A stretch of 64,000 nucleotides of DNA. Origin: Naegleria gruberi. Lineage: Eukaryota. The DNA is taken from NCBI GenBank assembly GCA_000004985.1, contig GG738883.1, one strand, 5' to 3'. Under the pieces are notes generated by a model, which ran no database searches, had not been told where the DNA came from, and saw only the letters and a list, made by a program, of their open reading frames with translations. Shown in pieces: positions 13,365 through 59,572 of this stretch (position 1 is its first letter; every line of letters starts with the position of its first letter). The position numbers and the translations under genes were made by a program.

Positions 13365-16109
13365 ATGCAAAACGAAGGTAAAGAACAACAAAAAGCCGGA
13401 GGTTTCTTCTCCTCACAAAACAAGAGAAGTGAAATCAACGAATGGAGATTGGGCTTGGGAAATGAAAAGGAATCCGTCAGAAAGGATACAGTCAAGAAGG
13501 TTATTGCTGCCATGACTGTCGGTAAAGACGTTTCCATGTTGTTCACTGATGTCATCAAGTGTGTTGCTACCAACAATATCGAACTTAAGAAGTTGGTCTA
13601 TCTTTATATTATGAATTATGCTAAGACTCAACCAGATTTGGCTATCATGGCTGTCAATCAATTCGAAAGAGACTCTAACCATCCAAATCCTTTGATCAGA
13701 GGTTTGGCTGTCAGAACTATGGGTTGTATCAGAGTTAACAAGATTGTCGAATATTTGGCTGAACCAATTAGAAAGACAATCAAGGATAAGGATCCATACG
13801 TCAGAAAGACAGCTGCTGTTGCCATTGCTAAATTGTTCGATATTAATGCTGAAATGGCTATTGAGCAAGGATTTGTTGAAGCTTTGGAAGAATTGTTGAC
13901 TGATGACAACCCTATGGTTGTTGCTAACGCTGTTAAAGCTTTGGATGAAATTTCATCAACATCAAGTGAAGTTATTCTTGATTTCACAGAAAAGACTGTC
14001 AAGACTCTCTTGGCTGCTTTGAACCAATGTACAGAATGGGGTCAAGTTTTTATTTTGGATGCTCTCTCAAATTATCAACCAAAATCTGATAAGGAAACTA
14101 CTGAAATTGCTGAAAGAGTTGCTCCACGTTTGCAACATGCCAACTCTGCTGTCGTCCTTTCTGCTGTCAGAGTTATTAACAAGATGATTGATTTGATTAG
14201 CAATGAAAATGAAAAGAATGAATTGATCCAAAAGATCTCTGCTCCTCTTGTCACATTGTTGAGTGGTAACCCAGAAATTCAATATGTTGCTTTGCGTAAT
14301 ATTGACTTGATTGTCCAAAGTAGACCAGGTATTCTTGCTAACAATATCAAGATGTTCTTCTGTAAATATAACGATCCTATTTATGTCAAGTTGGAAAAGT
14401 TGGATATTATGGTTAAATTGGCTTCTGAACGTAACGTTGATACTGTTTTGATGGAATTCAAGGAATATGCCACTGAAGTTGACGTTGAATTTGTCAGAAG
14501 AAGTGTCCGTGCTATTGGTAGATGTGCCATTAAGCTTGAAAGAGCTGCCCAAAGATGTGTTGATGTTTTGCTTGATTTGATTCAAACTAAGGTTAACTAT
14601 GTCGTCCAAGAAGCTATCATTGTCATTAAGGATATTTTCAGAAGATATCCAAACAAGTATGAAGGTATTATTGGTAAGCTCTGTGAAAACCTCGATACTT
14701 TGGATGAACCAGAAGCTAAGGCTTCTATGATTTGGATTATCGGTGAATATTCCAACAAGATTGAAAATGCTGACGAATTGTTGCAAATCTTTATTGATAC
14801 TTTCCACGATGAAACTTCTCTTGTTCAATTGCAAGCCCTTACTGCTGTCATGAAGCTCTTCTTGAGAAGACCAAACGACACTAGAGATTTGATCAAGAAG
14901 GTTCTCCATTTGTCTACTGAAGAATCTGATAACCCAGATTTGCGTGACAGAGGTTACATTTATTGGCGTTTGCTCAATGAAGACCCAGAAGCTGCTAAGG
15001 CTGTCGTCTTGTCTGAAAAGCCAGTCATTAGAGATGACTCTACCAACATTCCAAAGACCTTGTTGAACGAATTGGTCAAGCATATTGGTACTTTGTCATC
15101 AGTCTATCATAAGCCTCCAGAATTGTTCGTTGCTGGTTACAAGAAGAAGAAGAGTGAATCTGGTGAAGATAAGGAAGTTGAAGATTACCTCAGAGAACAA
15201 CAACACCAAGATGCTGCTGACAGAACTACCACCCAAGATATTCTTGGTTTGGATGACGTTTTGGGAATGGGTACTGGTGCTCCAGCTCAAGATTCTGGTG
15301 ATCTTGATTTGGATGATGTTTTGGGTGTTGGTTCATCTCAACCTCAATTACAATTCTCTGCATCAACATCTGCCAATGCCAACGTTACTTCTCTCGTTCG
15401 TCCAGCTCCACAAAAGAAGTTGTTGCTCACTGCTGATAAGAGCAAGGGTCTCCAAATTTATGGTGCCATCAATAGAAATGCCAGAGGTGGACTCGAATTC
15501 TTGGTCACTTTTGAAAATCTTTCACAACAACCAATCACTGGTTATGCTTGTAAATTCAACACAAACACTTTCGGTTTCGTCCCAGGACAAGTTCAAGCTA
15601 ATGGTATTATGCCTGGTCAAAAGACTGATGGTATTGTTCCAATCCTCCCTGGTAACAATGAATCTGATAAGGTTTCTCCACTTATCCAAGTTGCCATCAA
15701 GACTGATTTGGGTGTTGCTTACTTTGCTGATAGCATTCCATTCAGTGCCTTGTTCATTGAAAATGGTTCTTGTGATAGAGATACTTACCTCACTCTCTTC
15801 CAAAGCATTCCAGATGAAACTGAAAGCACTACTGATGCTCCAAACGCTTCTGCTGGTAATGCTAGCGCTCTCATTTCTAGATTGCAAGCTCACAACATTT
15901 TCTTCGTTGCTGACCATCAAGATGCTGGTTTGACCAACTATTACTTCTCTGCCAAATTCAACTATGGTACTGAAGAAGTTATTGCTCTCTTGGAAATTGT
16001 TGTTAGTGCCAACTCACCACAATGCAAGATTAATACCAGATGTGCTGAAACTCAATTCATCCCATTCATTGAACAAGATGTTGCCAGAATTGTTTCCCTC
16101 ACTTTCTAA
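13365..16109 (+). CDS. AP-1/AP-2 adaptor complex beta subunit (beta-adaptin), single exon, 914 aa
   Basis: Near-invariant trunk motifs VKKVIAAMTVGKDVSMLF, LKKLVYLYIMNYAKTQPDLAIMAVN, NPLIRGLAVRTMGCIRV and DPYVRKTAAVAIAKL. A hinge and an appendage domain follow. Confidence 0.9.
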   Translation: MQNEGKEQQKAGGFFSSQNKRSEINEWRLGLGNEKESVRKDTVKKVIAAMTVGKDVSMLFTDVIKCVATNNIELKKLVYLYIMNYAKTQPDLAIMAVNQFERDSNHPNPLIRGLAVRTMGCIRVNKIVEYLAEPIRKTIKDKDPYVRKTAAVAIAKLFDINAEMAIEQGFVEALEELLTDDNPMVVANAVKALDEISSTSSEVILDFTEKTVKTLLAALNQCTEWGQVFILDALSNYQPKSDKETTEIAERVAPRLQHANSAVVLSAVRVINKMIDLISNENEKNELIQKISAPLVTLLSGNPEIQYVALRNIDLIVQSRPGILANNIKMFFCKYNDPIYVKLEKLDIMVKLASERNVDTVLMEFKEYATEVDVEFVRRSVRAIGRCAIKLERAAQRCVDVLLDLIQTKVNYVVQEAIIVIKDIFRRYPNKYEGIIGKLCENLDTLDEPEAKASMIWIIGEYSNKIENADELLQIFIDTFHDETSLVQLQALTAVMKLFLRRPNDTRDLIKKVLHLSTEESDNPDLRDRGYIYWRLLNEDPEAAKAVVLSEKPVIRDDSTNIPKTLLNELVKHIGTLSSVYHKPPELFVAGYKKKKSESGEDKEVEDYLREQQHQDAADRTTTQDILGLDDVLGMGTGAPAQDSGDLDLDDVLGVGSSQPQLQFSASTSANANVTSLVRPAPQKKLLLTADKSKGLQIYGAINRNARGGLEFLVTFENLSQQPITGYACKFNTNTFGFVPGQVQANGIMPGQKTDGIVPILPGNNESDKVSPLIQVAIKTDLGVAYFADSIPFSALFIENGSCDRDTYLTLFQSIPDETESTTDAPNASAGNASALISRLQAHNIFFVADHQDAGLTNYYFSAKFNYGTEEVIALLEIVVSANSPQCKINTRCAETQFIPFIEQDVARIVSLTF

Positions 16110-16283: not shown

Positions 16284-18200
16284 ATGTCTTCGTCGATAAA
16301 CCATGATGAGAGCCAATCATTACTCTCCTCACCGCCTCCTCCCCAAACACAACAAGAAGATGATGACCAAGAATTCGACTTGCATCCAATAGAGAAGATT
16401 AAAAAACGTTCTTCCGGAACCATTTCTACAATCTTTTCCATCGTCAATACTATGGTTGTAAGTTTTTCATCATCCGAATTGTTCTTCAATACTAATTATC
16501 TATTTTCTAATTTCTTCTAATTTTCTAATGAATTAAAATTGATATCTATTTAAATAGGGTTCAACCATTCTATCACTTGCTTGGGGATTTACTCAAAGGT
16601 TTGTTTTCTTCTTTAATTTATTATTGAATATTTTATTGAATATATTTAATTATTATTATTATTCTAATTAATTGCAACAAATAGTGGTTTATACTTGGGT
16701 ATAATAGTATTTATTCTCGTCGGATTTATTAGTTATTACACTTGTAATTTGGTTGTTAAACATTCATTATTTAAAGTGAGATATGATGCCAGTAGTGAAG
16801 AAAGCAATACTAATACTGAATCAATTAATAGTGAAAGTCCAAATTATAATTCAATAGGAGGAGAATCAAAGACTCAATCATTCAAGATTGGAAAAGTTTC
16901 ATATACTAAAAAAACAAAGAGGCAAATCAAATCAATTTTTGATATTAAGGATTTTTCACAAGTTTGTGTTGAACATTTAGGAAAGTGGAGTGAAATTTTG
17001 TGTATTCTTACAAGTATTGTAATTTTGGTTGGAGCTTCAATTGCCTATCACATATTTATGAAAGATTGTCTTGTTAGTATTATTGATGGTATTGCAAATA
17101 TTGAATATGATCAATCAGTTATTTATCCATGGGAAAATAATGGTCCTCCATGGTATTGGAATGGAATTTTTGCATCATTGATTATTGTTGTGGTTTTATA
17201 TCCAATTACATTGTTTAAGAATTTGAATTTCCTTGTCAAGTTTAACTCATTTGGTATTTTCTTTGTGTTATTCTTGCTGGTTTTTATTATTTATGCATCA
17301 ATTGAAGCTTTGGTTTCACCTTTTGAAATGTCAGCTAATGTTGCAAGTGTGTCAAGTTTGACCATTTCAGCATTGGGATTATTTGGAAGTAATTCAGCTA
17401 CTCCTCCTGCTTCATCTTCACAGGATTCTTATAATATTGCTGATGATGTTATTAGAAAAGGAGACGAAGTTCTTGTCAATCACCTTAAATTATTCGATAT
17501 TCACTTTAGTCACCTTTTGGCAATTTTGTCTTTGAGTTTCTTTATTCACAACGTTATTGGACCAATTTTGAAAAACCAAAAGTCTTTGAAACATACCCAA
17601 AGAGATACAGGTGTAGCTTTCATTGTTGCTGGTATGATTTATGCTGTTCCTGGAATTTTGGGAGCTTTTGCGTATGTTTTTTTTAAATTTATTGGATTTT
17701 TATTGACCTATTATATCACAAGTTTCCGTTTTGCCTCAATTGATCAAAACTTTTTGAATCAATTCTCATCTAAGAGTATTTATGCTAATATTTCTCGTGG
17801 TGCAGTTTTGTTCCAATTAATGTCAATTTATCCTCTCTTGTTGAGTGTTATTAGAGTTCAATTTTTCAGTTTTGTGTACAGAAATAATCCAAACAAGGAG
17901 AAGCAACAATATCCTGGAATTATTCAAGTTGGCGCTTTGAACTTTTTTGTTTGTTTGATTACCACAGCAATGGCTGCTTTTTATCCAATGGTTGGTACTG
18001 TTTTGAGATTTACAGGTGCCATTTGTGGTTTAATTTACATGTACTTGTTACCTGTTTCAATTCACTTGGTTGTGCAATACAAGAAGAAGCAACTCACCAT
18101 TCTCTCAGTTCTATTCCATGTAGTATTGGTGCTATTTGGTTTATCAATTTTGGTATTACAATTTATTGATTTTGATCAATTCACACAGAAAGGCAATTAA
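16284..18200 (+). CDS. Amino-acid transporter, Aa_trans family (AVT/SLC38-like); 3 exons (16284..16457, 16558..16598, 16685..18200)
   Basis: GTAAGT and GTTTGT donors. The junctions rebuild the family N-terminal motif SSGTISTIFSIVNTMV|GSTILSLAWGFTQ-S-GLYLGIIVFILVGFISYYTC. About 10 predicted TM segments follow. Confidence 0.75.
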
Positions 18201-18222
18201 ATAAAAATAATATTATATAATC

Positions 18223-21186
18223 TTATTCCATCTTTGTTGGTGGTGGCAATTCAGTTGACTCTCCCTTTTGACTAGTAGGTGAAGCAAATGTAGCAGCTGG
18301 TGGAGTTTGTTGCATTTTCATATTAGGAGAAGAGAATTGAGCAAGAAGAGGCTTTCCAAATGGAGAAGGAGTGAAAGGACCACCAACTCCAAGTTTTGGA
18401 GTGCTTGCAAAAGGAGTTGGAGTGCTTGGAATAGCTTCCTTCTTTTCCTTCTTTGCTTTTTCCAAAGCTTCTTGTTCTTGTTGAAGTAATAACAATGACT
18501 TGGATTCTGTTTGGAGAGCTTTCCATTCCTTTGCAAGTTGAGTTTCAATAGCTTGGAAAATCTTAGTGAGTTGAGTATCAGATAAGGTGACACTCTTGAG
18601 TTGTTGCAAGGTGGTTTGGCAAAAGTTCTTCAAAGACATAATACTTTCCTTATATTCATCAAAGCTATGGATACACTTCTTATTTTCATCATCAATATCT
18701 TCATTATCCTTCTTTTCCTTCATCAAGAAAACTTCTTTTGGAACTGTGAGTAAGATGGAACCTAACAAGTGACTAACATATGAAATGTCCTTAATACATG
18801 TACTAACACTGATTTGGAAAGATAAGCTCTCTTGTTTGGTGAAACAAATGTATGGAATAATAAAATGTTCAAAGAGAAGAGAGTATGTTTGAACAAGCTC
18901 TGCAAGTTGAGTAGTGAGGAACCACTTAATATTACCAGACAAGAGAACTGGAATGGCATATTGTTGAATATCCTTGATAACTCTACAGCAATCAGAAATA
19001 AAAGAGTCAACAAAGTTGAATTCACGTTGAATGACAGATTTGCCAAATAATGATAATTCAGTAGTTTCACCTTCAAGGAAGAGTGTTCTGAAAACAAAGT
19101 TCAACTTGTGAAGGTTTTGAGAGTAGTAATGAGCATCACTTGGAATTTCAATATTTCTAAACTTTTCAATATCGTCATCCTTCTTTCTTTCAGTGGCAAA
19201 CTTTCCAATACCTTCATTGTCATTTGGAGTTTCATATCCTGAAATATTTCTGTGCGAATTAAAGGCAGCAATCTTGGCATTTTGGTGGAATCTCAAAATG
19301 GAGAAGATGAGTAACTTTCTTTCAAGGGAGTGCTTCTTGAGTTGTTCTTGTAAAGCATCCATTTCAATTGTAATCTTTGAAGATGAGGAAGCATCAGTAC
19401 TGAACAAGAGTCTTTGAATGAATGGATAAAATTCAAAAGCCAAGAACTCTGGGAGAGGAGGCAATTGATAAGGAATCTTGATTTTAAGCATGGCTTGAGC
19501 CTTATCTCCAGCATAGTATAACCTAGTGAGAGTTTCAATATATTCAACAAAATCATGTACATTGTGTACCTCCTCGAGGAATGACAAGTAAGTTGGCAAA
19601 ATACCAGCAGTATTTACAGGGACAACTGGTGAATTGGATTCAGCAACATTGATAGGGGCTGTTGGAACAGGTGTAGGTACATGGGCTTCATCAGTCATTT
19701 GTTGATCTTGATCTGATGATTTAAAACTAATCTTGATGGTTGTTCCCTTAGTGTTGGTATTAACAAGAGTGGTACCTTCTTTTTGTGGCTTAACTTTGAC
19801 CTTTTTCTTTGCTGATGCATTGGATTCTTCAGGTTCAGTGGCCTTTCTCTTATTCTTTTGCTTCAACATTGGCATGGATAAGAGAACTTGTTCAACGGAC
19901 TCTACAGGCATATTAGGGTGTTGAGAATAAATTAATTCCAATAAATAGAAGATTTCTTGAAGGAGTGTGTTAGAAATGAATGGAGATCTACAAATGACAG
20001 CAATATCTCCCCAAGCTTCACTATCAGAAGGGATATTGTCGAAAAAGTGTCTCAATTCTTTCATTCTTCTAACATCGAAAAAGTCTTTCAAATTGATAGT
20101 GTCAGAACTATCAACTTGTTTGTTTTCACCTTGTTGATTAATTCCTTCGATGGTTTCTTCCTTCTTGACAACAGGCTTTGCCTTAGCTTTGGAGCCCTTC
20201 TTTGGTTTGGCTTTTTTGGTTGCTCCTGTTGAAGATCCCAAAGAACCACTAGAACTGGCATGTGAAAGGGAAGCTTGATTTCTGGTGCAAGTAATCTCAG
20301 TCTTGGCATCTTCTGAATGTTCAGAATAGACATAATTCAATAAATTGGCATGTACAGTTCTAATCCAAGCGTCCAACCACCAACAAAAGTAATGGCACAT
20401 ATCCATTTGGTGAAGTTGTTGAACTTGATTGTCGTGAAGAGCCATCAAAAGATCATATCTGAATGTACACAAATGTCTACTTCCTGTTGCAAGGAGTTGA
20501 CTTCTACAATAGCCTAGAACTCTATGATATAACTTAGGGTCTTTTCCTAAAATATTGATCATGCTTGTCAATGTTTGATTTTTCTCTCTCTTCTTCTTTG
20601 GATCAATTTTATAGGTTGAAAGGAGGTCAATCTTGTAAATTTGAGGAAGGTCATACTTCTTCAGAAGAGTTGAAATGTGTTTGATAAACAAGTTTTCATC
20701 ATTTACCCATACTTGTCTCTTCACTTCAATAGGGAGATTTTTAAAAATCTCATTATTACCTTGAAGTTGTTGTAAAAAGTTGACAGGAATTTCATCCATT
20801 CTCTTCAAAAGAGAGTATACAATCGGACGTAATTCCTCAAATCCAATATATGGGAAAATTTGTTCCAATAGTTCCTTTTCTTGAGTTAATTCACTTTCAT
20901 TTTCAATTTTATCAAGAAGAATTTTCTTCAAATGGTTCATCAAACCAAAAAATAAATTGTTTCTTTGTACATTCAATAGATCGGTTAACTCCAAAATAGG
21001 CGGAATGCTTGGAGACACTGCATTACTAGATAATGATGAAAACTGTTTTTGAAAAGTAGTAATGGCAACCTTTGGATCACCAGAACTCAGCTTGGTAAGA
21101 ATATATTCTTGCCCTTCGGCTCCTAACAGCGCTCTTGAGTGATCAGAATTTGGCGGTTGATAACCTCCTTCACCACTTCCACTCAT
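18223..21186 (-). CDS. NELF-B (COBRA1)-like negative elongation factor subunit, single exon, 987 aa, with low-complexity insert and a coiled-coil C-terminal extension
   Basis: Conserved NELF-B blocks: PIEVKRQVWVNDENLF, KLYHRVLGYCRSQLLATGSRHLCTFRYDLLMALHD and DMCHYFCWWLDAWIR. An S/K-rich insert (ATKKAKPKKGSKAKAKP) and a C-terminal KEWKALQTESKSLLLLQQEQEALEKAKKEKK coiled coil are not part of the remembered family pattern. Confidence 0.65.
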   Translation of the reverse strand: MSGSGEGGYQPPNSDHSRALLGAEGQEYILTKLSSGDPKVAITTFQKQFSSLSSNAVSPSIPPILELTDLLNVQRNNLFFGLMNHLKKILLDKIENESELTQEKELLEQIFPYIGFEELRPIVYSLLKRMDEIPVNFLQQLQGNNEIFKNLPIEVKRQVWVNDENLFIKHISTLLKKYDLPQIYKIDLLSTYKIDPKKKREKNQTLTSMINILGKDPKLYHRVLGYCRSQLLATGSRHLCTFRYDLLMALHDNQVQQLHQMDMCHYFCWWLDAWIRTVHANLLNYVYSEHSEDAKTEITCTRNQASLSHASSSGSLGSSTGATKKAKPKKGSKAKAKPVVKKEETIEGINQQGENKQVDSSDTINLKDFFDVRRMKELRHFFDNIPSDSEAWGDIAVICRSPFISNTLLQEIFYLLELIYSQHPNMPVESVEQVLLSMPMLKQKNKRKATEPEESNASAKKKVKVKPQKEGTTLVNTNTKGTTIKISFKSSDQDQQMTDEAHVPTPVPTAPINVAESNSPVVPVNTAGILPTYLSFLEEVHNVHDFVEYIETLTRLYYAGDKAQAMLKIKIPYQLPPLPEFLAFEFYPFIQRLLFSTDASSSSKITIEMDALQEQLKKHSLERKLLIFSILRFHQNAKIAAFNSHRNISGYETPNDNEGIGKFATERKKDDDIEKFRNIEIPSDAHYYSQNLHKLNFVFRTLFLEGETTELSLFGKSVIQREFNFVDSFISDCCRVIKDIQQYAIPVLLSGNIKWFLTTQLAELVQTYSLLFEHFIIPYICFTKQESLSFQISVSTCIKDISYVSHLLGSILLTVPKEVFLMKEKKDNEDIDDENKKCIHSFDEYKESIMSLKNFCQTTLQQLKSVTLSDTQLTKIFQAIETQLAKEWKALQTESKSLLLLQQEQEALEKAKKEKKEAIPSTPTPFASTPKLGVGGPFTPSPFGKPLLAQFSSPNMKMQQTPPAATFASPTSQKGESTELPPPTKME

Positions 21187-21411: not shown

Positions 21412-22817
21412 TTACAAATTCTTATGGTAAAAAGTCACCAATAATTCCTTAAACTTATTCAGATTATTGAATTGGAATGCAATGTGATTATTACAAAAGT
21501 GTCGAGTTCTGGTGGATTCTTGAAAGCTCTCTGGGTATACAATGGTGCCCATATAGGATTGGACACTCTCTGGATTGTACTTATTCTTTGAGACTGATTC
21601 CATGGTTGCTTTGAGACAATCTTCTTGATTAGAGCTTGGAACTATCGAATCACCAACTGTTTGCAAGAAGAAAATTGTTCGATTATTGGAAAGGTTTACA
21701 TTTTTTAAGAGCTCAATTGGATCGTTGTGAAATGGGGGAAAACCAAAGTGAGAAACTTTGAGAGGTGAGACGCTCTTGATAGTTTCCAATCCAAGACTTG
21801 CAATAGGATCACTGGAGACCATTGCCTTAGCTCCAAACAAAAGTGTCTGATAGACGTTACAAGGAGGTGAATCAAGGAATGCAATTTTAATTCGATTCTC
21901 TTTGGCAAATGCAATTGCTGAAGTGGCAGCTCCCTACAATTATTTCAACAATTATTTAAATAGTCTAACAAATTTCACACTTACCATTGAGCTACCAAAG
22001 AGTCCAACATTATTAGTCTCATTGAGAAATGTAAATCTTTCCAATAAATAATCAAAAGCTCCTAAAACATCCAAATGTTCAAAATTTCCAAAGCTCACAA
22101 ACTTGATTGGCTCAAATAATGATGAATCACCATGATTTCTCAAATCAATTGATAATACATTATATCCTGCATGATATAAAATTCCAGCAGGTAATAAGCT
22201 ATCATATTTTAATCGACAAACTCTGTATCCATGAACAACAATTGCAAACTTAGAAGTTGAATTGATGATATCCTGTTTGTATAATGTTCCAACAATATTT
22301 GCAGTTCCTATTTCAATTATTCCAACATTCATTCGAACAATTTGAAATTAAACTTACCTAATCCTTGAACCCAATCCACAGGTCGACTCTTAAATTTTAC
22401 AATCTCAGTCTTTTCTGAATTAACATAGAAAGGAGCCAATTTCTCATACCATTGACTCTCTGGTTCAGTCAACGGAGGACAATCATATAACAGTGTGAAA
22501 TTTTGAGGAGAATTTTCTCTGAAATATTTACAATTCTCAGGCGCAATTTCAAAAGCAACATCAAATAAATAATTACCCAAACAGAACCATCCAACCACAA
22601 ACAAAGCACCAAAGAATAATAATCCAGTAATGCACAAAATGGAAAGTGTTGAGATGGCCACAATAATTTTACGTTTTCTGGTGGATGTTGTTGATGATTG
22701 TTGATGATAGTAGGTCTCCAATGTTGCAGGATCATCATGAGTGTGGTCATCCTCTAACTTATCAAAGGATGAATATGAATGATGATGAGGTCGAGTAACA
22801 AGTGAGCTTCCTGACAT
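21412..22817 (-). CDS. Membrane-anchored alpha/beta-hydrolase fold protein; 3 exons (22817..22358, 22307..21985, 21933..21412)
   Basis: N-terminal TM (IIVAISTLSILCITGLLFFGALFVVGWF). Two GTAAGT introns of about 50 nt (phases 1 and 0) join the three track ORFs. The joined sequence has the nucleophile elbow GLFGSSMGAATSAIAFA and an upstream FAIVVHGY block. Confidence 0.65.
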
Positions 22818-23740: not shown

Positions 23741-24460
23741 ATGCAACAACTTGACGAAGGAATTGACGAAGAAATCAACAGCAATTATCAACAAACAGAA
23801 ATATCCAACTCGGAATTGAATGAAAATTCCAATTCACCACAATTATCTATCAAGATTATCACATTCGGAGTATTGCATGGTAAAATTCCAAAGAATAGTT
23901 ATGATGTCTTGTACAATTTACAAGAACTTCCAAATCCTCTGACTGCACAAGCTAGAAAGAAGATGACTGGACTTTCAAAAGAGTTGAGAGAGGATTTCAT
24001 TTCCAATACAATGGTTAAATCTCATTTTGAAACATCGTATAGAGAAATTGTTGGAAAGTTGAATGAAAAATTAAAAGAATTGAGAAATATTGCTGTAGAA
24101 TTGGAGGATAAACCAGAGGAAGAGAAGGAAACCAAAGAAGATGAGGAAGAAAGTGAAGAAAATGAGGAAGACGAAGATGATGAGGAAGAAATTGAAGATG
24201 AAGACGAAGAAGAAGATGAAGAGGATGATGAGGAAGAAGATACTGATGAAAATACCTTTGTTATTGCTGTATGTTGTCACAAGGGAAAGCACAGATCTGT
24301 TTCATTTGCAGAAATTCTCAAAGAAAAGCTCACCTCAGATTCAACACTTCGTTCCTCAATTAGTTCCCTAAATGTTGTCCACAGGGATGTTCATAAGAAG
24401 GGTGCTTCCAACAATAACTCACGAGGCTCCCACAAGAGCAAATTCTTCAATGACTACTAA
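23741..24460 (+). CDS. Stand-alone RapZ (YhbJ) C-terminal-domain-like protein with a long acidic (D/E) insertion
   Basis: [46 protein letters not shown] aligns with the RapZ C-domain block ...[59 protein letters not shown] aligns with ...[22 protein letters not shown]. There is no N-terminal P-loop domain. About 55 residues of E/D separate the two blocks. Confidence 0.6.
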   Translation: [239 protein letters not shown]

Positions 24461-27629: not shown

Positions 27630-29435
27630 TTATTGTTTACTGTAGAAATGATTAATGGTTACATTAAATTGAATTTTTAAAAAACTTACCTCTTGTTGTG
27701 GAGCAGACTGTGAACTTTCAGACTGTTGTGCCTTATCTTCCTTCCACATAAACTTTAAAGATTTTCCGTCCATATCAGTTCCTTGTTGGGTTGCCTTAGT
27801 GGCATCAGCTCTAGTGGAATACTTTACAAGACAGGCGCCATCAGTGAGTACATCAACTTTGTCAACTGAACCAAACTTGGAAAAGTGGGATTGAATAGAT
27901 TCTGGATTCATCTTGTCCTCTGGTAAACCAGTAACATAGAGAGTTGAGGTTCTATTATCCTTAGAAAGAGTTCTTCCTGCAAAAGCTCCTCCTCTACCTC
28001 TTCCTCTGGCATAACCTCCTCTACCTCTGTAGGAACCAAAGTTTGGACTCTTTGTTGTTGATTCTGAACCTTCAGTGATTTGCTTGAGATCATCATCAAG
28101 GCTCTTTTCTTTCAATTCTTCTTGCTTCTTCTTGAAGAATTCTAATTGTTGTTGTTGCTTTGGTTTGGAAGCTTCAGAAACCTTTCCAATGATTGTCTTT
28201 TGAGTTTGCAAAGAGGATTCAATAGTTTCAGACAAACTCTTCATAATTGTAGCAAGTTCCTTTCTCTTTTCACTACCTTCTGGTAAACTTTCCAATTTCT
28301 TTTCCAAACTTTGATACATGGAAAGTTGTTGTGTGAGAATGTCTTCATTCTTCTTGGTAATTTCACTAGTTTTTTGGAGAGTAACAGTCTTTTGTACAAC
28401 TTCTTCAGCAACATTGTCTGAAGAGTGGTCAACCTTCATTTCACTTGCAACTCTCTTAGACCAAGCAGCTTGAATGAATCTATTTCCTAGAATGGCATCT
28501 GGTGTCTGCAATGCATTTTGAGCATCTTCCTTATTTTCAAATTGAACAAATGCCATGTGATTGTGTGATTTGACCATGATATTGACAATTGGACCAAACT
28601 TCTTGAAATAATAGAAAATCTTGTGCAAACGATTCAACTCTGGTGGAATTCCTGTCAACATTATAGTATTAGTAGATGGCAATCTAGCAGCTGTTGGATC
28701 TGACAAAATATCCTTATTCAAAACAAGAATATTATTTCCATAACTATCCTTGATAATTTCTCCTTCAATTCTCTTATTTTCCTTTCTCTTATCATTCTTA
28801 TCGTACTTGCTATCCCTCTCATATTTGGAATCCTTTCTATCATTCTTATCATATTTGCTATCTCTATCGTTATATTTCGAATCCCTATCATATTTACTGT
28901 CTCTATCATATTTTGAATCCTTTCGTTTGTCTCTAGTGTCTCTTCTTTCGTTATCGTAATCATCCTTTGATTTGGATTTTTCATAACCTTTAGTTTGTCT
29001 ATCCTGTTGTTTGTTATTTGGTGTTGGTTTAGTCTTTTTTGTATCCCTAGAGTATTCTTGATCGGTTTCATCTTTTCTTTTCCTTTTCGTTGAGTCGTTT
29101 TGTTGTGTTGAAGATGAAGAGGATGAAGAAGCAGCTGTAGAAGAAGTTGATGTTGTTGTTGTTGATGGAGGAGTTGTTGATTTTGGTTTCTCTTTAAATA
29201 ATCCTCTATCCAAAGCAGACATAAATTCTGATACAAAACTAGTAACTTGATCACCTAAAAATTCGTTCAATTGATCCTTCAATGTTCCTCCAATAGTTTC
29301 CTTGTCTGTGTCTCTCAACAAGGCCAACACATAGTCAGCAAGCAGAGTCGGATCAGCAGGACACTTGTCTCTCAAATGATCAATGAGCCATTGTTTAAGT
29401 TCTTGTTCTGCTGAAGCATCAAAAAGGGACGACAT
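27630..29435 (-). CDS. RBM26/RBM27-family RNA-binding protein (PWI-like N-terminal domain, two RRMs, RGG box)
   Basis: The N-terminus ELKQWLIDHLRDKCPADPTLLADYVLALLRD matches the RBM26 PWI-like region (LKSWLSKTLEPICDADPSALANYVVALVKKD). RRM segments (TIMLTGIPPELN...HMAFVQFENKEDAQNAL; STLYVTGLPEDKMNPESIQSHFSKFGSVDKVDV) and an RGG stretch are present. A possible terminal GTAAGT..AG intron (27640..27689) would move the stop to 27637-27639. Confidence 0.65.
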   Translation of the reverse strand: MSSLFDASAEQELKQWLIDHLRDKCPADPTLLADYVLALLRDTDKETIGGTLKDQLNEFLGDQVTSFVSEFMSALDRGLFKEKPKSTTPPSTTTTSTSSTAASSSSSSSTQQNDSTKRKRKDETDQEYSRDTKKTKPTPNNKQQDRQTKGYEKSKSKDDYDNERRDTRDKRKDSKYDRDSKYDRDSKYNDRDSKYDKNDRKDSKYERDSKYDKNDKRKENKRIEGEIIKDSYGNNILVLNKDILSDPTAARLPSTNTIMLTGIPPELNRLHKIFYYFKKFGPIVNIMVKSHNHMAFVQFENKEDAQNALQTPDAILGNRFIQAAWSKRVASEMKVDHSSDNVAEEVVQKTVTLQKTSEITKKNEDILTQQLSMYQSLEKKLESLPEGSEKRKELATIMKSLSETIESSLQTQKTIIGKVSEASKPKQQQQLEFFKKKQEELKEKSLDDDLKQITEGSESTTKSPNFGSYRGRGGYARGRGRGGAFAGRTLSKDNRTSTLYVTGLPEDKMNPESIQSHFSKFGSVDKVDVLTDGACLVKYSTRADATKATQQGTDMDGKSLKFMWKEDKAQQSESSQSAPQQEVSFLKIQFNVTINHFYSKQ

Positions 29436-34512: not shown

Positions 34513-34668
34513 CGGCAAATTATTAATAATTTCATCACCTACATCAGTATGGTCGCTTAGTTCAGTCAAACAAGTCAATGAAACACCTACTCAATTTTAT
34601 TGAGACAAATTACTAAAATCACTAAGGTTTCGTTCATGCTCAAGTGACTTATTAAGGAAATAATTGAT

Positions 34669-34759
34669 GGTGAGATGGTCGAGTGGTCTAAGACGACACG
34701 TTAAGGTATGATTGATACCGTGTTCCGCAAGGGCGTGGGTTCAAATCCCACTCTCATCA
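34669..34759 (+). tRNA. tRNA-Leu (anticodon AAG), type II with long variable arm, with 11-nt intron at 34707..34717
   Basis: Acceptor GGTGAGA/TCTCATC plus discriminator A. D-arm GTC-GAGTGGTCTAA-GAC. Anticodon stem ACACG/CGTGT with loop TTAAGG[intron tatgattgata]C. Variable arm TCCGCAAGGGC. T-arm GTGGG-TTCAAAT-CCCAC. A downstream T-run gttttacattgacatttt follows. Confidence 0.8.
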
Positions 34760-34945
34760 GTTTTACATTGACATTTTAAATTCTTAGAGATTAAGCGTAA
34801 CACGACCGTTTAATTTTGATAAACCATTAAAAAATGAACGCAAACAACAGAAACGATCCACTTACTAAATTGTACGTTAGTGATAAGTGATAAGTTTTTC
34901 CTTAGTGCAATTATGAATTAATAAAACAAACTCTATAGACAAAAT

Positions 34946-49899: not shown

Positions 49900-52800
49900 T
49901 TATGAATAAACTTTTAGTTTGCCTGTATCAGTAGAAACAAGCAGTAATTTGTGAAGAGGTAAATATTTAACGTCAGTGTAGTTTCCATTATTGGAATCGC
50001 TTGAAATATTGTTAAATGCTTGCCCTTCACAATATAAAACCTCTCTATTGTCTGAATCGATTGGAATTTCTCTCTTCTTTTTAGAAAGCTTTCTTTGTTT
50101 GTTCTTGAAGTCGTTCGAGGATTTAGAGTTCAATCTGTCAATTACATTTCTTGTAGAAACAAAACTGGAAGATTTACAGTAGAGAATTCTATCAGGTTGC
50201 AATGCAAATAATTGATCACATTCTGGTCTACTATAAAAATCGAACGAAATGATTGGAGCATTCGAAACTAAATCTTGATTGGTATTGTTGGAAACCTGGA
50301 ATGCCTTGATACACTTGGATGGTACAGAGTTTCTTGTATCCCAAACACGAATTAAGTCATTCTTATAGTCAGCTGCATCTTCTACTGGTCCTGTAATTGT
50401 GGAGGGGCTATTATCAAATGAAACAGTCTTACGGCAGCATGTGATAAAGTGTCCAGGTTTGGTTCCATCGTATGGCAATATTTTAGTAAGCTCTCCATTT
50501 TCGTGTGAACAGAATGAATCCAAAATCAATCCACTATGTTGTTCCATTAAAAATATCACGCCATTAGATAGTCCAATAGTTAAAAAGTTATCTCTTGGAT
50601 GACACTTGGAAATGCATTTGATGTTATGTTCTCCAATCACAGCAGAAGAGGTTGATGACATCATGTTTGGTACATAATTTGATGATTGGGATGTGAATAA
50701 CTTCCACTCAAAGGCACAAGACTTGGAAGGTTGTCTTAGATCATAAAATTGCACATTAGGAACAGACGAATAACTACTAGCCACAAGAATGTTAGGATTA
50801 TTTGTCAATGTTTCAAAAGTAATGAAATTCATAGTACCATTCAATTCTTGATTAATAGATGGAGATCCTGCACCAACAGTATACAAATATTTAGTTGTCT
50901 CAACATCAAATAAGTGAATATTTCCTCCACTATCCTTACACAGAAACTTGTTATCTGAAATGAACTTTACCTTGTCAACTTGAGATCTAAATAATTGCTT
51001 GTTAGTAGTTCCAGTATTTTGATAGCACAAATAGGTGCTCTCCATAGAAGAAGATTCCAAATTCCACAAACGTACAACAGGATTTGAGTGATGTCGCAAT
51101 AAACCTCCACCAGTTAATATAATTCTCTCATCTGATGGACAAACATCAATACATCTAAGTGATAAGTCATTAAATTTCAAATCTGAAAGCTCATACTCCA
51201 AAATTCCCTTAAATTTAACATCAGAAGTTTCTCTATCAAAACTATTGAATGCAAATGATTTTTCAAATATTTTTCCACTTGATAGTTGGTTATGAATGTA
51301 CCAAGAATTCTTTTCTGAGGTAACCTTTTTTGCTTTGGAGTATTGAATTTTAGGCTCCTTTGACTTGAGCTCATCTGCATCATTCTCTGAAAAATCAACA
51401 GTATCTTTTGTAAGACTGTCTTCGAGCATCTTACTATTCAATACAGCCTCTCTCATTGTAGAATTTCCAAAAACGCAACAGAGCTCTCTATACAAGGTGC
51501 AACCCATCTTGAAATGTCTATTATTTTTGAATCCACAATTTTCATCGTCATTACTCTCCTTGGTAGATTCATCCTCGACGGGACTATCATTGGTCGAAAT
51601 ATCCAAATTCTTATCATCAGATGCTGTAGAATCTCCACGTTTGAATCTCTCAAAGAATGATCGAATACCCTTTTTCTTTGTAACCTCATTATTTGTAGAA
51701 TTAGCTTGAATGGTCTGGGCCTGAATCGCTTCTTCATCAACTAAATCGCTGGCTAATGGTTGGCTATTTACTATAGGATTCTTGGAAAGATTTGCAAAAG
51801 ATGGTGCCACAGCAAGTTGTTGTGAAAAGTATCCATCCAAGTAAACGGCAGAGCACAAGATTTTTCTAAATGTAGATTTAGAGTTTTGGAATATTTGAAT
51901 TCTAACTTTAAGGTCACAAATATGGAAGAGTCTACACAAAAAGTGAGTAATTCTCTCAAAAATGTCCAAAATGTAAACAAATTGATTATTGGAATCATCA
52001 TTTTGAATAGCTAAATTATAGGTTGCCTCCATAATATTATTAATCAAGACTTGATTTGTTTGTAAAATATTATTCACAACAAGAGTTTGATTTGTGGTTC
52101 TTTCGAGAATATTCTCTAACAAGTCAATAATATTAGTTGCATTCCTCTTTAAATTTTCAAGATTTGTTATAGAACTAGAGGTTAGATCGTATGTCTTGAT
52201 TTCTTGTAAAATGATAGAAAAGAATTTAGATGCATAGTAACTAACAATTGTTCCATATCCCAAATTGGAGCTCAAATTATTCAATAGTAAAAAGATACTC
52301 TCATCGAATTGATAATGTCTAATCTTTTTTCTCAGTTTGAATAGTAATGGATCCAAAATGTATTGTATCGAAACAATAATTCCAAAATCGTTACATAATT
52401 TACACAGTGTAGCACATATCTTTTTGGAAATTTCTGGAAACTTGACACAATTAGTGAATAATCCTTCAATAAAGAATGGTAATAATTGTTCTAAGAATAA
52501 ACGCTTTTGATCCTTAGTTGTTGGATTAGTGATACCCTCAGAGTATGTGGTTGATGATGTTTGAGAAGCCTTACTATAAGGTTTGTGTGTAACATCAGAC
52601 AATATTACATTATAAATTAATGAAGAAAATGAATATGAATACAAGTTGAGAGGTAGTAACAACAAGTCTGATCTTTCTGGAATGGTATTGTTTGGTGATG
52701 AAGATTCATTATCTGAGGAAGATGTGCTATTTAAAATGGACTCTACTCTTTCATTTTCCATATACAATTGATAGAGTCTCAATTTAAGTATCTTTTTGGC

Positions 52801-55479
52801 CGAGTCACACTCTTTGAATTTGGAAAGGAATTTCTCTCTCGAATATCTTACCATTCCTCTCAAAATTTCAATACCATAAGTCCATGGTTGGATGTGAACA
52901 AAATGATTTGGTGAATTTTTTTCCATCTTTTTCACAAAGAACATGTGGAGAATGTGAGGAAGAACTAAATCGAGAGCATCAGGTGGAAGAGCCATAATAC
53001 TCTCTTGGAATTCTTGTGAATTATTTGGTGGTTTGATTTGTCTCAATACAAAATTATATCTTTCCAAATGACTCTGAAAGAGGTATAAATTTGAGAGAAC
53101 CCAATGACAATACTTGAAATATTCTGGAAAATATTTTTTGGATTGGTTAATAAAGAGTGCCTTCTTTCCTTTTGAAAGATTGATATCAATTAACTTTTCA
53201 ACAATGGAACGAGCAGGTTGACTGATCTTTTTCAATGCAGGTACTTCTGGTTGATGGTTCAACATTCCAGTCTCCCTAATATACTTTTCAAGAGACCTCG
53301 TATTAAATAATGGCTCAAAAGTATAGAGAGAGGCTAGCAAACATCCAACAGCAAACATGTCATCATTATAAAGCTCGCCTTTGGATTGAACTCGAGAACG
53401 ATTAATCTTTTCAATGAATGGTACAACATGATAGGCAGAGCTGGTAAAGTACTTGCTACTGAATTTGACAGAATTTTCATACAAGTGCATTCTCTCCATA
53501 ATAGAATTTGATGTGGAATATCTAGGGGGGTGTGGTTCGAAGAATAATTGAACAAATCCAAAACGTGAAGGATACAAGTCGTTATTTTCCTTTCTCAACA
53601 TGACATTTTTAGCTTCAATGGCATGGTGTCCACTAAGCTTGTATCCAAAAATCAAATCAATCCAATGATGAATATTCTGACTCACATAGTCACTCTCCAG
53701 GGCAGCTTTATGCTTTTGAATAAATTCTTCAGGTGTAGAAGCCCACGGCGGCAATACTAAATCAGTCATGTCTGTATGAATGGAAGTGAACATGTTCGGA
53801 TCAGTGAAAAATTCTGGAATGCATTCATCTGGAGTCCACTGATAGAGACGAACAATGGAATTTGGATATTCTTTTGGTTCATAGTTTTGTCTGACAAATT
53901 TCCTCAATGCACTAATAGAAACTCTTCTTGCCTTGTAGATAAAGTAGGTAATTTCAGAAAGTGGCTCTGTAACGTGATGAGGATTATCTGGTGATTGATA
54001 GGTAAAATCCAACATTTCATCTCCCTTATTGAGTCTGAATTTAGTTTTGGTTAAATCTCTCCATTCAACACGTGAGTTTGGATCGGTTGGGTCACTCTCA
54101 AAATCAATAATCCATGGCAATACAGGATGATACTGTTGATCACCAAGTCTCCTCCCAGCAAGAGCATTAAGTTTCATCAAGTAGTCAAAATTTGAAATTT
54201 TACCCTCCTGCCATAAGAGAACTAGATCTTTGGTTCTATTCTCGGAAATGTTCTGTGGTGACAATAGGGTACTATTATTTCCAGCTGTACCAGTATTGGA
54301 TGTTTTTGAGGGTGATTTAAATTCTGCCATTGGTGTTTGTAAAACGTGATGATGATGATCAGAGATGTGTTCTGGAGTATAGAGTATATCCTGTCCAATA
54401 ATTGAAATCCACAACATTTCATTGATTAGAATATTATTGGGTATTAATTTTCCATGAGCAATATTATTCTTGTGACAATGTGAAACTGCCTGTAATAATT
54501 GATAGAATAAAAATCTTCTACGAATGTCATCTAAATTAATTGAATAAAAAGTTAATGAAATAATGAAACAATTATTAAAAAAAAACAATATAAAAACAAA
54601 CCTGTTTCAAGAAGAACCTTATTGAATTGAATCAATTCTTCCCAAGTATAATTGTACATTTCCAAAACAATAAACCAAGCATTTTTACTTTCATAAACAT
54701 CGTATAATAATGGTATATTAGCGTGCTATAAATAATAGTATTTCAATAATTATCATTTCCAAATGAATAAATAATTGATAATAAACAAATTTTAATAATG
54801 TTGATAAGTTAAATATTTAAAAATAATTATAACATACCTTTGGAATAAAAGGACCGTCAAATAATATAAAAGTTTCATCCAAATCCCCATGTGAAGGATT
54901 ATAAAAAGTATAATCATCCAAAATTAATTGATTTAAATGATAAATTTGTGATAATGAATGATGTATGGCCTTTCTAATTGAATGATTAGATTTTCCATCT
55001 CCCATTTCAAATTGTTTCGGAATGACTCGTACCACTACATTTACTTCATCGGGTAATAATGAAAGTGGAATACTATTATTTGAAATGATATTATGATGAT
55101 TAGAATTGTTATTATTGTTACTATTATTAACATTGTTATTATCCAAATTATTATTATTCAAATTATTCACATTATTTTCTTCATGTAATTGATCCTGTTG
55201 ATCTTGTTGATTCATTGTTGGAGATATTGATGATGAAATTGATGGTGATGAATTTAATTCATCTTGTTGTGATAAATTTTCATCATCTGTTAACACATGA
55301 TTATCAAAAGTAGGCCTCTTTTTATAAATCTTGGATCGTTTACTATTATACATTTTGCAACAAGCATAGGAACATTTTCTCGTATATTCGGGACTCAACA
55401 TGTACTGATACTCGATGAGAGTCGGCGAGAGATCCTGTTCAATATATTCTCTCACTTGACTCGCATTTAAATTTCCCAT
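49900..55479 (-). CDS. WDR81: WDR81 ortholog (N-terminal pseudokinase-like region, BEACH domain, C-terminal WD40 repeats), about 1798 aa; 3 exons (55479..54838, 54725..54602, 54530..49900)
   Basis: The BEACH domain WQEGKISNFDYLMKLNALAGRRLGDQQYHPVLPWIIDF...FRLNKGDEMLDFTY...ITYFIYKARR...YQWTPDECIPEFFTDPNMFTSIH...HHWIDLIFGYKL aligns closely with human WDR81 ([38 protein letters not shown]...). C-terminal WD40 repeats are present (IRVWDTRNS...). Exon 1 (track ORF 54817..55479) joins through GTATGT and GTTTGT introns of 112 and 71 nt. Confidence 0.8.
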
Positions 55480-59498: not shown

Positions 59499-59572
59499 TA
59501 CAGCGAGCGGGGCTTGAACCCGCGACCTTAAGCGTGTTAGGCTTACGATCTAACCAACTGATCTATCGCTGC
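59499..59572 (-). tRNA. tRNA-Val (anticodon AAC)
   Basis: Minus-strand GCAGCGATAGATCAGTTGGTTAGATCGTAAGCCTAACACGCTTAAGGTCGCGGGTTCAAGCCCCGCTCGCTGTA. Anticodon stem TAAGC/GCTTA with loop CTAACAC. T-arm GCGGG-TTCAAGC-CCCGC. There is a G1-U72 wobble in the acceptor stem and a 3' T-run. Confidence 0.75.

What the first reader, a model, noticed from the sequence alone, without database searches (positions are those of the whole stretch)
18223..21186. NELF-B (COBRA1) homolog, intronless and expanded to 987 aa
Several conserved NELF-B blocks are present, so the organism probably has NELF-mediated promoter-proximal pausing. NELF is absent from yeasts, plants and nematodes. The protein is about 400 residues longer than the human one, owing to an S/K-rich insert and a long C-terminal coiled coil.
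Basis: partly seen in the sequence, partly recalled or inferred. Interest (0 to 1): 0.55.

Follow-up and report, generated by a model that had tools for sequence, protein, structure and literature searches.

The report
Naegleria NELF-B gene, expanded form
This is a real single-exon gene in the amoeba Naegleria gruberi for NELF-B, a scaffold protein that helps hold RNA polymerase II near gene starts; the family was already known to be widespread, so the find is ordinary apart from lineage-specific extra segments and its apparent absence from the reference gene catalogue.

The parts
18223..21186 (-). Complete single-exon NELF-B (COBRA1) gene, 987 codons plus stop. The start ATG at 21186-21184 lies in an A-rich context.
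   Evidence: coordinate mapping checked.
20353..21129 (-). Residues 20-278: NELF-B N-terminal module (human ~8-272). It includes residues 93-160, which correspond to the human region that crosslinks to NELF-C (K85-K146).
   Evidence: phmmer alignment to PDB NELF-B; hhalign; 92% identical to N. fowleri; AF2 pLDDT 70-90; crosslink data in PMC4940160.
20086..20352 (-). Residues 279-367: insert 1, S/K-rich and predicted disordered, lying between human residues 272 and 273.
   Evidence: gapped in canonical profiles; pLDDT below 35; 46% identity with many gaps to N. fowleri; absent from Neovahlkampfia and BB2 NELF-B.
19876..20085 (-). Residues 368-437: first part of the NELF-B middle ('hinge') module (human 273-341), with the invariant RR and W-GD motifs.
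19597..19875 (-). Residues 438-530: insert 2, K/T/P-rich and predicted disordered. It carries two embedded motifs that are invariant in the four orthologues.
19792..19863 (-). Residues 442-465, KQKNKRKATEPEESNASAKKKVKV: the only match in the protein to the classical bipartite nuclear-localisation pattern.
   Evidence: Pattern scan: same site in N. fowleri and P0002; in Willaertia the pattern sits in insert 1. The function is inferred.
19720..19764 (-). Residues 475-489, VNTNTKGTTIKISFK: a short linear motif invariant in the four orthologues. Its core is kept as TTIKISIK in the distant relative P0008.
19264..19596 (-). Residues 531-641: second part of the middle module (human ~340-439), with the invariant F-Y-P.
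   Evidence: pLDDT 70-87.
19060..19263 (-). Residues 642-709: insert 3, a disordered stretch (~646-680) plus an extra helix, at the middle/C-terminal module boundary.
18724..19059 (-). Residues 710-821: C-terminal helical region, the presumed counterpart of the human C-terminal module.
   Evidence: Confident helices in AF2; 78% identical to N. fowleri; collinear with P0008 up to residue 744. Sequence-profile homology to canonical NELF-B is not significant.
18664..18723 (-). Residues 822-841: charged K/D/E linker, predicted disordered.
18442..18663 (-). Residues 842-915: two conserved C-terminal helices (842-867 and 870-915).
   Evidence: AF2 helices; 82% and 75% identity to N. fowleri and Willaertia; heptad test weak; no match outside the clade among 1.84 billion representatives.
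18226..18441 (-). Residues 916-987: Pro/Ser/Thr-rich disordered tail holding 8 of the protein's 13 S/T-P sites.
   Evidence: 0.9 expected if uniform; the enrichment recurs in all four orthologues; pLDDT about 30.

Best explanation
The ORF is the Naegleria gruberi orthologue of NELF-B (COBRA1), the alpha-helical scaffold subunit of the negative elongation factor. Shown: family membership, fold, orthology, single-exon structure, purifying selection on the core and on the C-terminal helices, and presence of the partner NELF-C/D in the same species. Inferred: the N-terminal module (the best-conserved part, covering the region that contacts NELF-C in human NELF) binds NELF-C/D to form the ancestral two-subunit 'core NELF', which associates with early-elongating RNA polymerase II and slows or stabilises it near promoters. 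The roughly 400 extra residues are lineage-specific. Three disordered loops are inserted at or within the flexible hinge between the rigid modules, where they should not disturb the fold. One carries a bipartite-NLS-like basic cluster and a conserved short peptide motif. The C-terminus adds a conserved helix pair and an S/T-P-rich tail. These most likely supply nuclear import, extra protein or nucleic-acid contacts, and possibly proline-directed phosphoregulation. All of those roles are inferred.
Against: There are no expression, interaction or nascent-transcript data for Naegleria. No NELF-A-like protein was found in Naegleria or Willaertia (a weak search). The last third (residues 631-987) shows no significant sequence-profile similarity to canonical NELF-B (probability 1%, E=0.054). 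Modelled alone it is low-confidence and matches nothing, so conservation of the NELF-E-type cradle is unproven. Human NELF-B also has a reported pausing-independent cytoplasmic role (PMC10591015, title and abstract), so family membership does not fix the function.
Confidence: 0.8

Rival explanations
1. It is a true NELF-B homologue by descent that has been repurposed in the Naegleria clade. The large additions (inserts, C-terminal helices, tail) reflect a role other than Pol II pausing, for example a cytoplasmic or signalling scaffold, or a different nuclear complex.
For: About 40% of the protein is lineage-specific, and parts of it are strongly conserved. No NELF-A-like protein was found. The C-terminal third is not recognisably canonical. 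A pausing-independent NELF-B function exists in mammals (PMC10591015).
Against: NELF-C/D is retained in the same genome. The best-conserved block is the one that contacts NELF-C in human NELF. A basic bipartite-NLS-like element points to the nucleus. Additions sit in hinge loops and at the terminus and leave the core intact.
Confidence: 0.15
2. It is a chance ORF or decaying pseudogene that gene callers missed because it is not a real gene.
For: The exact protein is not in the 15-billion-sequence collection, and no N. gruberi protein matched it.
Against: The probability of no stop in 987 codons is about 9e-33. Intact full-length orthologues exist in three other genomes or contigs, with conserved synteny. 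Conservation is strongly uneven in the way purifying selection produces. Half of the other long ORFs tested also lacked exact matches, so absence from the collection says little by itself.
Confidence: 0.01
3. It is a generic HEAT/ARM alpha-solenoid (karyopherin-like or cohesin-regulator-like) that only superficially resembles NELF-B.
Confidence: 0.01

Closest known systems
Human and Drosophila NELF-B (COBRA1), Pfam PF06209; PDB 6GML, 7PKS, 8JJ6, 8UHA chain V or A
   Same: Same family and fold. Collinear N-terminal and middle modules, with conserved motifs (FPY-G, EVKRQ-W, LY--VL, C-LR--LLM-LHD, W-LDA-IR, RR--EL, GD). Partner NELF-C/D is present.
   Different: 407 aa longer. Three disordered inserts at or within the hinge, an extra conserved C-terminal helix pair and an S/T-P-rich tail. 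About 16% structural-alignment identity. The C-terminal module is not recognisable by sequence. NELF-E is not expected and NELF-A was not found in this lineage.
Heterolobosean NELF-B reported by Chivu et al. (Neovahlkampfia damariscottae P004741, 544 aa; Heterolobosea sp. BB2 P017877, 592 aa as listed, N-terminally truncated)
   Same: Same phylum, same core blocks, 29% identity in the alignment.
   Different: They are of canonical length and lack inserts 1-3, the TTIKISFK motif and the extended C-terminus, so the expansion arose within a heterolobosean subclade.
Stramenopile-type bromodomain-containing NELF-B (P0128, 1002 aa; noted in Table S1 of Chivu et al.)
   Same: Also about 1000 aa. Its extra domain sits right after the W-LDA helix, the same loop as Naegleria insert 1.
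   Different: Its insertion is a folded bromodomain plus a K/E-rich stretch, not a disordered S/K-rich loop. It is an independent event.
Dictyostelium discoideum NELF, the unicellular reference for core NELF
   Same: A unicellular eukaryote with NELF-B and NELF-C/D but no NELF-E.
   Different: Dictyostelium has a NELF-A homologue listed. None was found for Naegleria here.

Membership tests
NELF-B / COBRA1 (Pfam PF06209) | Match to the COBRA1 profile above the curated gathering score | tested here: met
   128.6 bits against a cutoff of 22, E=3.7e-37, two stretches.
NELF-B / COBRA1 (Pfam PF06209) | NELF-B is the specific best relative among solved structures, by sequence and by fold | tested here: met
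NELF-B / COBRA1 (Pfam PF06209) | Collinear N-terminal (human 85-291) and middle (291-438) modules | tested here: met
   hhalign probability 100%, E=3.3e-67, reaching template column 418 of 596. Second stretch to human 340-439.
NELF-B / COBRA1 (Pfam PF06209) | Canonical C-terminal module (human ~438-580) that cradles NELF-E together with the N-terminal module | tested here: inconclusive
   Full-length Foldseek alignments span 830-890 columns. The C-terminal part alone gives hhalign probability 1%, and its model (pLDDT 49.5) matches nothing.
NELF-B / COBRA1 (Pfam PF06209) | Co-occurrence with the partner NELF-C/D (TH1 family) in the same genome | tested here: met
   N. gruberi XP_002673439.1 is listed by Chivu et al. 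and scores Pfam TH1 E=2.5e-111. It is encoded outside this window.
NELF-B / COBRA1 (Pfam PF06209) | Physical association with Pol II/DSIF and an effect on promoter-proximal elongation | not testable with these tools
   No Naegleria pausing or interaction data in the searched literature.
Four-subunit (metazoan-type) NELF | NELF-A subunit (NELF-A_N domain, HDAg-like region) | tested here: inconclusive
   A profile of 14 NELF-A-like N-domains found no Naegleria or Willaertia protein, but only 988 candidates were scored. There is no Naegleria entry in Chivu et al.'s NELF-A-like set. The whole genome could not be searched.
Four-subunit (metazoan-type) NELF | NELF-E subunit (N-terminal helix, RD repeats, RRM) | not tested
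   Chivu et al. describe NELF-E as recently derived and their candidate file is very small. The two-RRM ORF at 27630-29435 shows nothing linking it to NELF-E.
   For residues 870-915, 505/2000 shuffles reach the observed a/d hydrophobic fraction; for 842-915 it is 48/2000. AF2 predicts helices but with pLDDT 43-57.

The most novel reading that the evidence does not exclude
In the Naegleria/Willaertia clade, NELF may work as a minimal two-subunit factor. On this reading NELF-B itself has taken over jobs done in animals by NELF-E and by the flexible extensions of NELF-A/E. The basic disordered inserts would act as built-in nucleic-acid or Pol II contacts. The conserved C-terminal helix would fill, in cis, the cradle that holds the NELF-E N-terminus in human NELF. 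The S/T-P-rich tail would be the CDK9-type phosphorylation switch that releases the factor.
Probability: 0.1. Interest if true: 0.6.

Novelty: new member of a known kind. Interest (0 to 1): 0.3.

Why it matters
The gene closes a small gap. A published survey of pausing factors across eukaryotes lists NELF-C/D but no NELF-B for N. gruberi. This window shows that NELF-B is encoded there and was probably just not annotated, so the B + C/D core is intact in a well-studied discoban model. That agrees with, but does not newly establish, the view that core NELF dates back to the eukaryotic ancestor. The conserved additions (a short peptide motif, C-terminal helices, an S/T-P tail) and the repeated use of one hinge loop for insertions in unrelated lineages give concrete handles for asking how a NELF without NELF-E works. 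N. gruberi is culturable and already has chromatin and transcriptome data.

Tried and rejected
1. I tried to read the public gene table at this locus through the neighbouring gene. It returned only a 3.8-kb metagenome contig, so 'unannotated' rests on indirect evidence: plus the absence of any Naegleria entry in file 92 of Chivu et al..
2. The exact-sequence lookup is a weak test. Five of ten other long window ORFs also lack exact matches, presumably because of introns or different starts.
3. The profile search with A1 to deepen the alignment returned only 7 proteins because of the word prefilter. The AF2 alignment therefore had 9 rows and the mean pLDDT was only 58.6.
4. The C-terminal third was tested on its own. 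hhalign was not significant, the AF2 model was poor and Foldseek returned only generic helical bundles. I do not claim demonstrated homology there.
5. The coiled-coil claim was tested with a heptad-versus-shuffle test and is not supported for the last helix.
6. Inserts arising from microsatellite expansion is rejected. Only one 9-nt x2 repeat (18436-18454) lies within the gene.
7. I looked for other NELF subunits in the window and found none among 20 large ORFs.
8. The NELF-A-like search found nothing in Naegleria. I treat this as inconclusive.
9. Literature searches for NELF or COBRA1 in Naegleria or Heterolobosea found nothing relevant.

Full report
NUMBERING. Residue numbers below refer to the 987-aa ORF. 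Alignments A1-A3 and the AF2 model were built from a reference that lacks Met1, so their printed positions are ORF numbering minus 1. The mapping of residues to window coordinates was checked by translation.

1. THE OBSERVATION. An ORF of 987 codons runs on the minus strand from the ATG at 21186-21184 to the stop at 18225-18223. The window is AT-rich (about 34% G+C). At that composition a stop is expected every ~14 codons, and the chance of 987 stop-free codons is about 9e-33. The start lies in an A-rich context (aaaaaaaATGagt), 225 bp downstream of the stop of the preceding minus-strand ORF. The stop is 22 bp from the stop of a convergent amino-acid-transporter gene.

2. THE ORGANISM. The neighbouring 914-aa ORF (13365-16109) is identical to AP-1 beta of Naegleria gruberi NEG-M (XP_002674541.1, on a 371,401-bp contig). 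Four more window ORFs are exact N. gruberi RefSeq proteins, and a fifth shares a 90%-identity cluster with a longer one. The window is therefore N. gruberi, a heterolobosean (Discoba), not an animal or an amoebozoan.

3. FAMILY ASSIGNMENT.
- Pfam finds only COBRA1/NELF-B: 128.6 bits against a cutoff of 22, E=3.7e-37.
- Against all PDB sequences, the only hits are human NELF-B chains, E about 1e-34. ORF 25-277 aligns to human 13-272 and ORF 368-436 to human 273-341.
- A seven-sequence profile raises this to E=5e-77 and adds a collinear stretch to human 340-439.
- hhalign against 30 canonical-length homologues gives probability 100%, E=3.3e-67 over 401 columns, reaching template column 418 of 596.
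- An AF2 model (9-row alignment, mean pLDDT 58.6, core blocks 70-90) is all-helical.
- Foldseek's only significant PDB matches are NELF-B chains: E 1e-11 to 1e-13, probability 1.00, TM 0.51-0.59 on target length, 830-890 alignment columns. The next family is a karyopherin at E=0.018.
- An exhaustive HMMER scan of 1.84 billion representatives finds 574 relatives at E<=1e-3. The listed best 150, apart from the query's own cluster, match only part of the profile, nearly all through positions ~10-290.

4. ORTHOLOGUES, EXON STRUCTURE AND SYNTENY.
- The closest proteins are N. fowleri FDP41_012835 (1026 aa, 66% identity, 98% coverage), an unnamed 986-aa ENA protein (64%) and Willaertia magna ABK040_004890 (1127 aa, 48%). 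The two named proteins are annotated 'hypothetical'.
- The N. fowleri gene spans 3081 nt and the Willaertia gene 3384 nt. These are exactly the codons plus a stop, so both are single exons.
- The N. fowleri gene order (PapZ_C, COBRA1, Aa_trans, adaptin) and orientations match the window.
- A more distant relative, P0008, lies on a 122-kb JGI contig. It aligns collinearly with ORF 270-744 (E=3e-16). Its N-terminal core sits in three upstream ORFs. It is therefore an intron-containing gene of roughly 1000 aa with the same insert architecture.

5. IS THE GENE ANNOTATED IN N. GRUBERI? The exact protein is not in the 15-billion-sequence collection. Two homology searches returned no N. gruberi protein at all, although other N. 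gruberi proteins from this contig are present. Independently, the final NELF-B candidate file of Chivu et al., built from EukProt proteomes and stored uncut, contains heterolobosean entries but no Naegleria. Their NELF-C/D file does contain N. gruberi XP_002673439.1. I conclude that the gene is probably missing from the reference proteome. I could not view the record's gene table to confirm this.

6. OTHER SUBUNITS. XP_002673439.1 scores Pfam TH1 (NELF-C/D) at E=2.5e-111, so the core partner exists in the same species. No NELF subunit lies in the window. A profile of 14 NELF-A-like N-terminal domains, including that of Neovahlkampfia, found only six proteins and none from Naegleria or Willaertia. 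Only 988 candidates passed the word filter, so this result is inconclusive. Chivu et al. describe NELF-A's HDAg-like domain and NELF-E as later additions.

7. ARCHITECTURE. Comparison with canonical heterolobosean NELF-B (Neovahlkampfia, 544 aa; BB2), with P0004 and with the canonical profile gives the following layout, supported by AF2 confidence and per-segment conservation.
- N-terminal module, 20-278: 92% identical to N. fowleri.
- Insert 1, 279-367: S/K-rich, disordered, 46% identical with many gaps.
- Middle module part 1, 368-437.
- Insert 2, 438-530: K/T/P-rich, disordered.
- Middle module part 2, 531-641: carries the invariant F-Y-P.
- Insert 3, 642-709.
- C-terminal helical region, 710-821: 78% identical.
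- Charged linker, 822-841.
- Two helices, 842-867 and 870-915: 82% identical to N. fowleri and 75% to Willaertia, as conserved as the core.
- Pro/Ser/Thr tail, 916-987.

Vos et al. divide human NELF-B into an N-terminal region (85-291), a middle region that may act as a hinge (291-438) and a C-terminal region (438-519). [quoted passage not shown] On that map all three inserts lie at the hinge boundaries or inside the hinge. The NELF-C contact region corresponds to the best-conserved part of the ORF (about 93-160).

The same loop as insert 1 carries a bromodomain in a 1002-aa homologue, P0128. This matches the stramenopile bromodomain noted in Table S1 of Chivu et al.. That loop has therefore accepted insertions independently.

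Among 83 likely complete homologues the median length is 613 aa (IQR 578-684), and 4.8% are at least 987 aa. The length is unusual but not unique.

8. FEATURES INSIDE THE ADDITIONS.
- Insert 2 contains KQKNKRKATEPEESNASAKKKVKV (442-465). This is the only match in the protein to the classical bipartite NLS pattern (K/R)(K/R)-X10-12-(3 of 5 K/R). The pattern is from my own knowledge; the scan is. It recurs at the same site in N. fowleri and P0002, and in insert 1 in Willaertia.
- VNTNTKGTTIKISFK (475-489) is invariant in the four orthologues. Its core survives as TTIKISIK in P0008 at 22% overall identity. That pattern is typical of a short partner-binding motif in a disordered region.
- The tail holds 8 of the 13 S/T-P sites, against 0.9 expected if they were uniform. 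The enrichment recurs in all four orthologues. Proline-directed phosphorylation is a plausible but untested reading.
- The inserts are not microsatellite expansions.

9. WHAT IS NOT ESTABLISHED.
- The last third (631-987) shows no significant profile-profile similarity to canonical NELF-B: probability 1%, E=0.054, although the weak match is collinear. Modelled alone it is low-confidence (pLDDT 49.5) and matches only generic helical bundles. Its equivalence to the human C-terminal module rests on position and on the span of the full-length structural alignments.
- The 'long coiled coil' is not demonstrated. The heptad signal of residues 870-915 is matched by 505 of 2000 shuffles, and that of 842-915 by 48 of 2000. 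AF2 confidence for the last helix is 43-57.
- I found no data on expression, localisation, partners or pausing in Naegleria.

10. MECHANISM. Most likely (about 0.8 overall), this is the scaffold of an ancestral two-subunit core NELF. The N-terminal module binds NELF-C/D, and the complex rides on early-elongating Pol II. [quoted passage not shown] The hinge inserts and C-terminal additions probably provide nuclear import and extra contacts. The main rival (about 0.15) is a repurposed NELF-B-fold scaffold. The pseudogene reading and the generic-solenoid reading are each at about 0.01.

11. COMPARISON AND NOVELTY. NELF-B in Heterolobosea and a eukaryote-wide NELF-B/C-D core are already published. 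Automated Pfam annotation already tags the N. fowleri and Willaertia proteins as COBRA1. Three things are new here: the N. gruberi gene itself, apparently unannotated; the description of the clade-specific expanded architecture and its conserved motifs; and the shared insertion hot spot. This is a new member of a known kind, of modest interest (0.3).

Noticed in passing
window 18200-18223: The stop codons of the convergent amino-acid-transporter gene (+ strand, ends 18200) and the NELF-B gene (- strand, stop at 18223-18225) are only 22 bp apart. The gap is 61 bp in N. fowleri. Their 3' UTRs must therefore overlap or be extremely short.
   Followed up: partly
window 34668-34760 (+) and 59499-59572 (-): Two tRNA genes. 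One is tRNA-Val(AAC). The other is 91-93 nt long with an undetermined anticodon, probably intron-containing (ARAGORN; Rfam 48.3 bits).
   Followed up: no
window 23741-24460 (+): A 239-aa protein (XP_002674543.1) has a domain similar to the bacterial RapZ C-terminal domain (PapZ_C, E=2e-15) interrupted by a long acidic D/E tract. A PapZ_C gene also lies next to NELF-B in N. fowleri and close upstream of it in Willaertia.
   Followed up: partly
window 21412-22817 (-): Three collinear minus-strand ORFs (142, 126 and 162 aa) directly upstream of NELF-B have no Pfam match. They are probably exons of one gene. The equivalent N. fowleri interval is only 195 bp, so this gene is absent or relocated there.
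   Followed up: partly
window 27630-29435 (-): A 601-aa ORF with two RRM domains. It is not an exact match to any catalogued protein. Nothing links it to NELF-E, the RRM-bearing NELF subunit of animals.
   Followed up: no
window 49900-54588 (-): A 1562-aa ORF (TTG-initiated in the ORF list, so probably part of a larger spliced gene) combines a protein-kinase fragment and a BEACH domain.
   Followed up: no
window 60528-62480 (+): A 650-aa ORF combines DUF4116 repeats (4 stretches) and Sel1 repeats (6 stretches), an unusual pairing.
   Followed up: no
L005 3045-6241 (JGI sample 3300062135, contig Ga0606108_0025): A distant NELF-B orthologue was called as two separate genes (155 aa and 746 aa), with two uncalled exon-like ORFs between them. 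Together they would encode roughly 1000 aa with the same inserts as Naegleria, but the gene has introns.
   Followed up: partly
P0128 residues 386-469 (protein): A 1002-aa NELF-B homologue carries a bromodomain in the same inter-module loop as Naegleria insert 1. P0004 has a K-rich insertion a few residues further on. This loop is a recurrent insertion site in NELF-B evolution.
   Followed up: partly
Supplement of Chivu et al. (10.1101/2023.02.19.529146), files 92 and 99: N. gruberi appears in the final NELF-C/D candidate set but not in the final NELF-B set. This is most simply explained by the missing gene model at this locus rather than by gene loss.
   Followed up: yes
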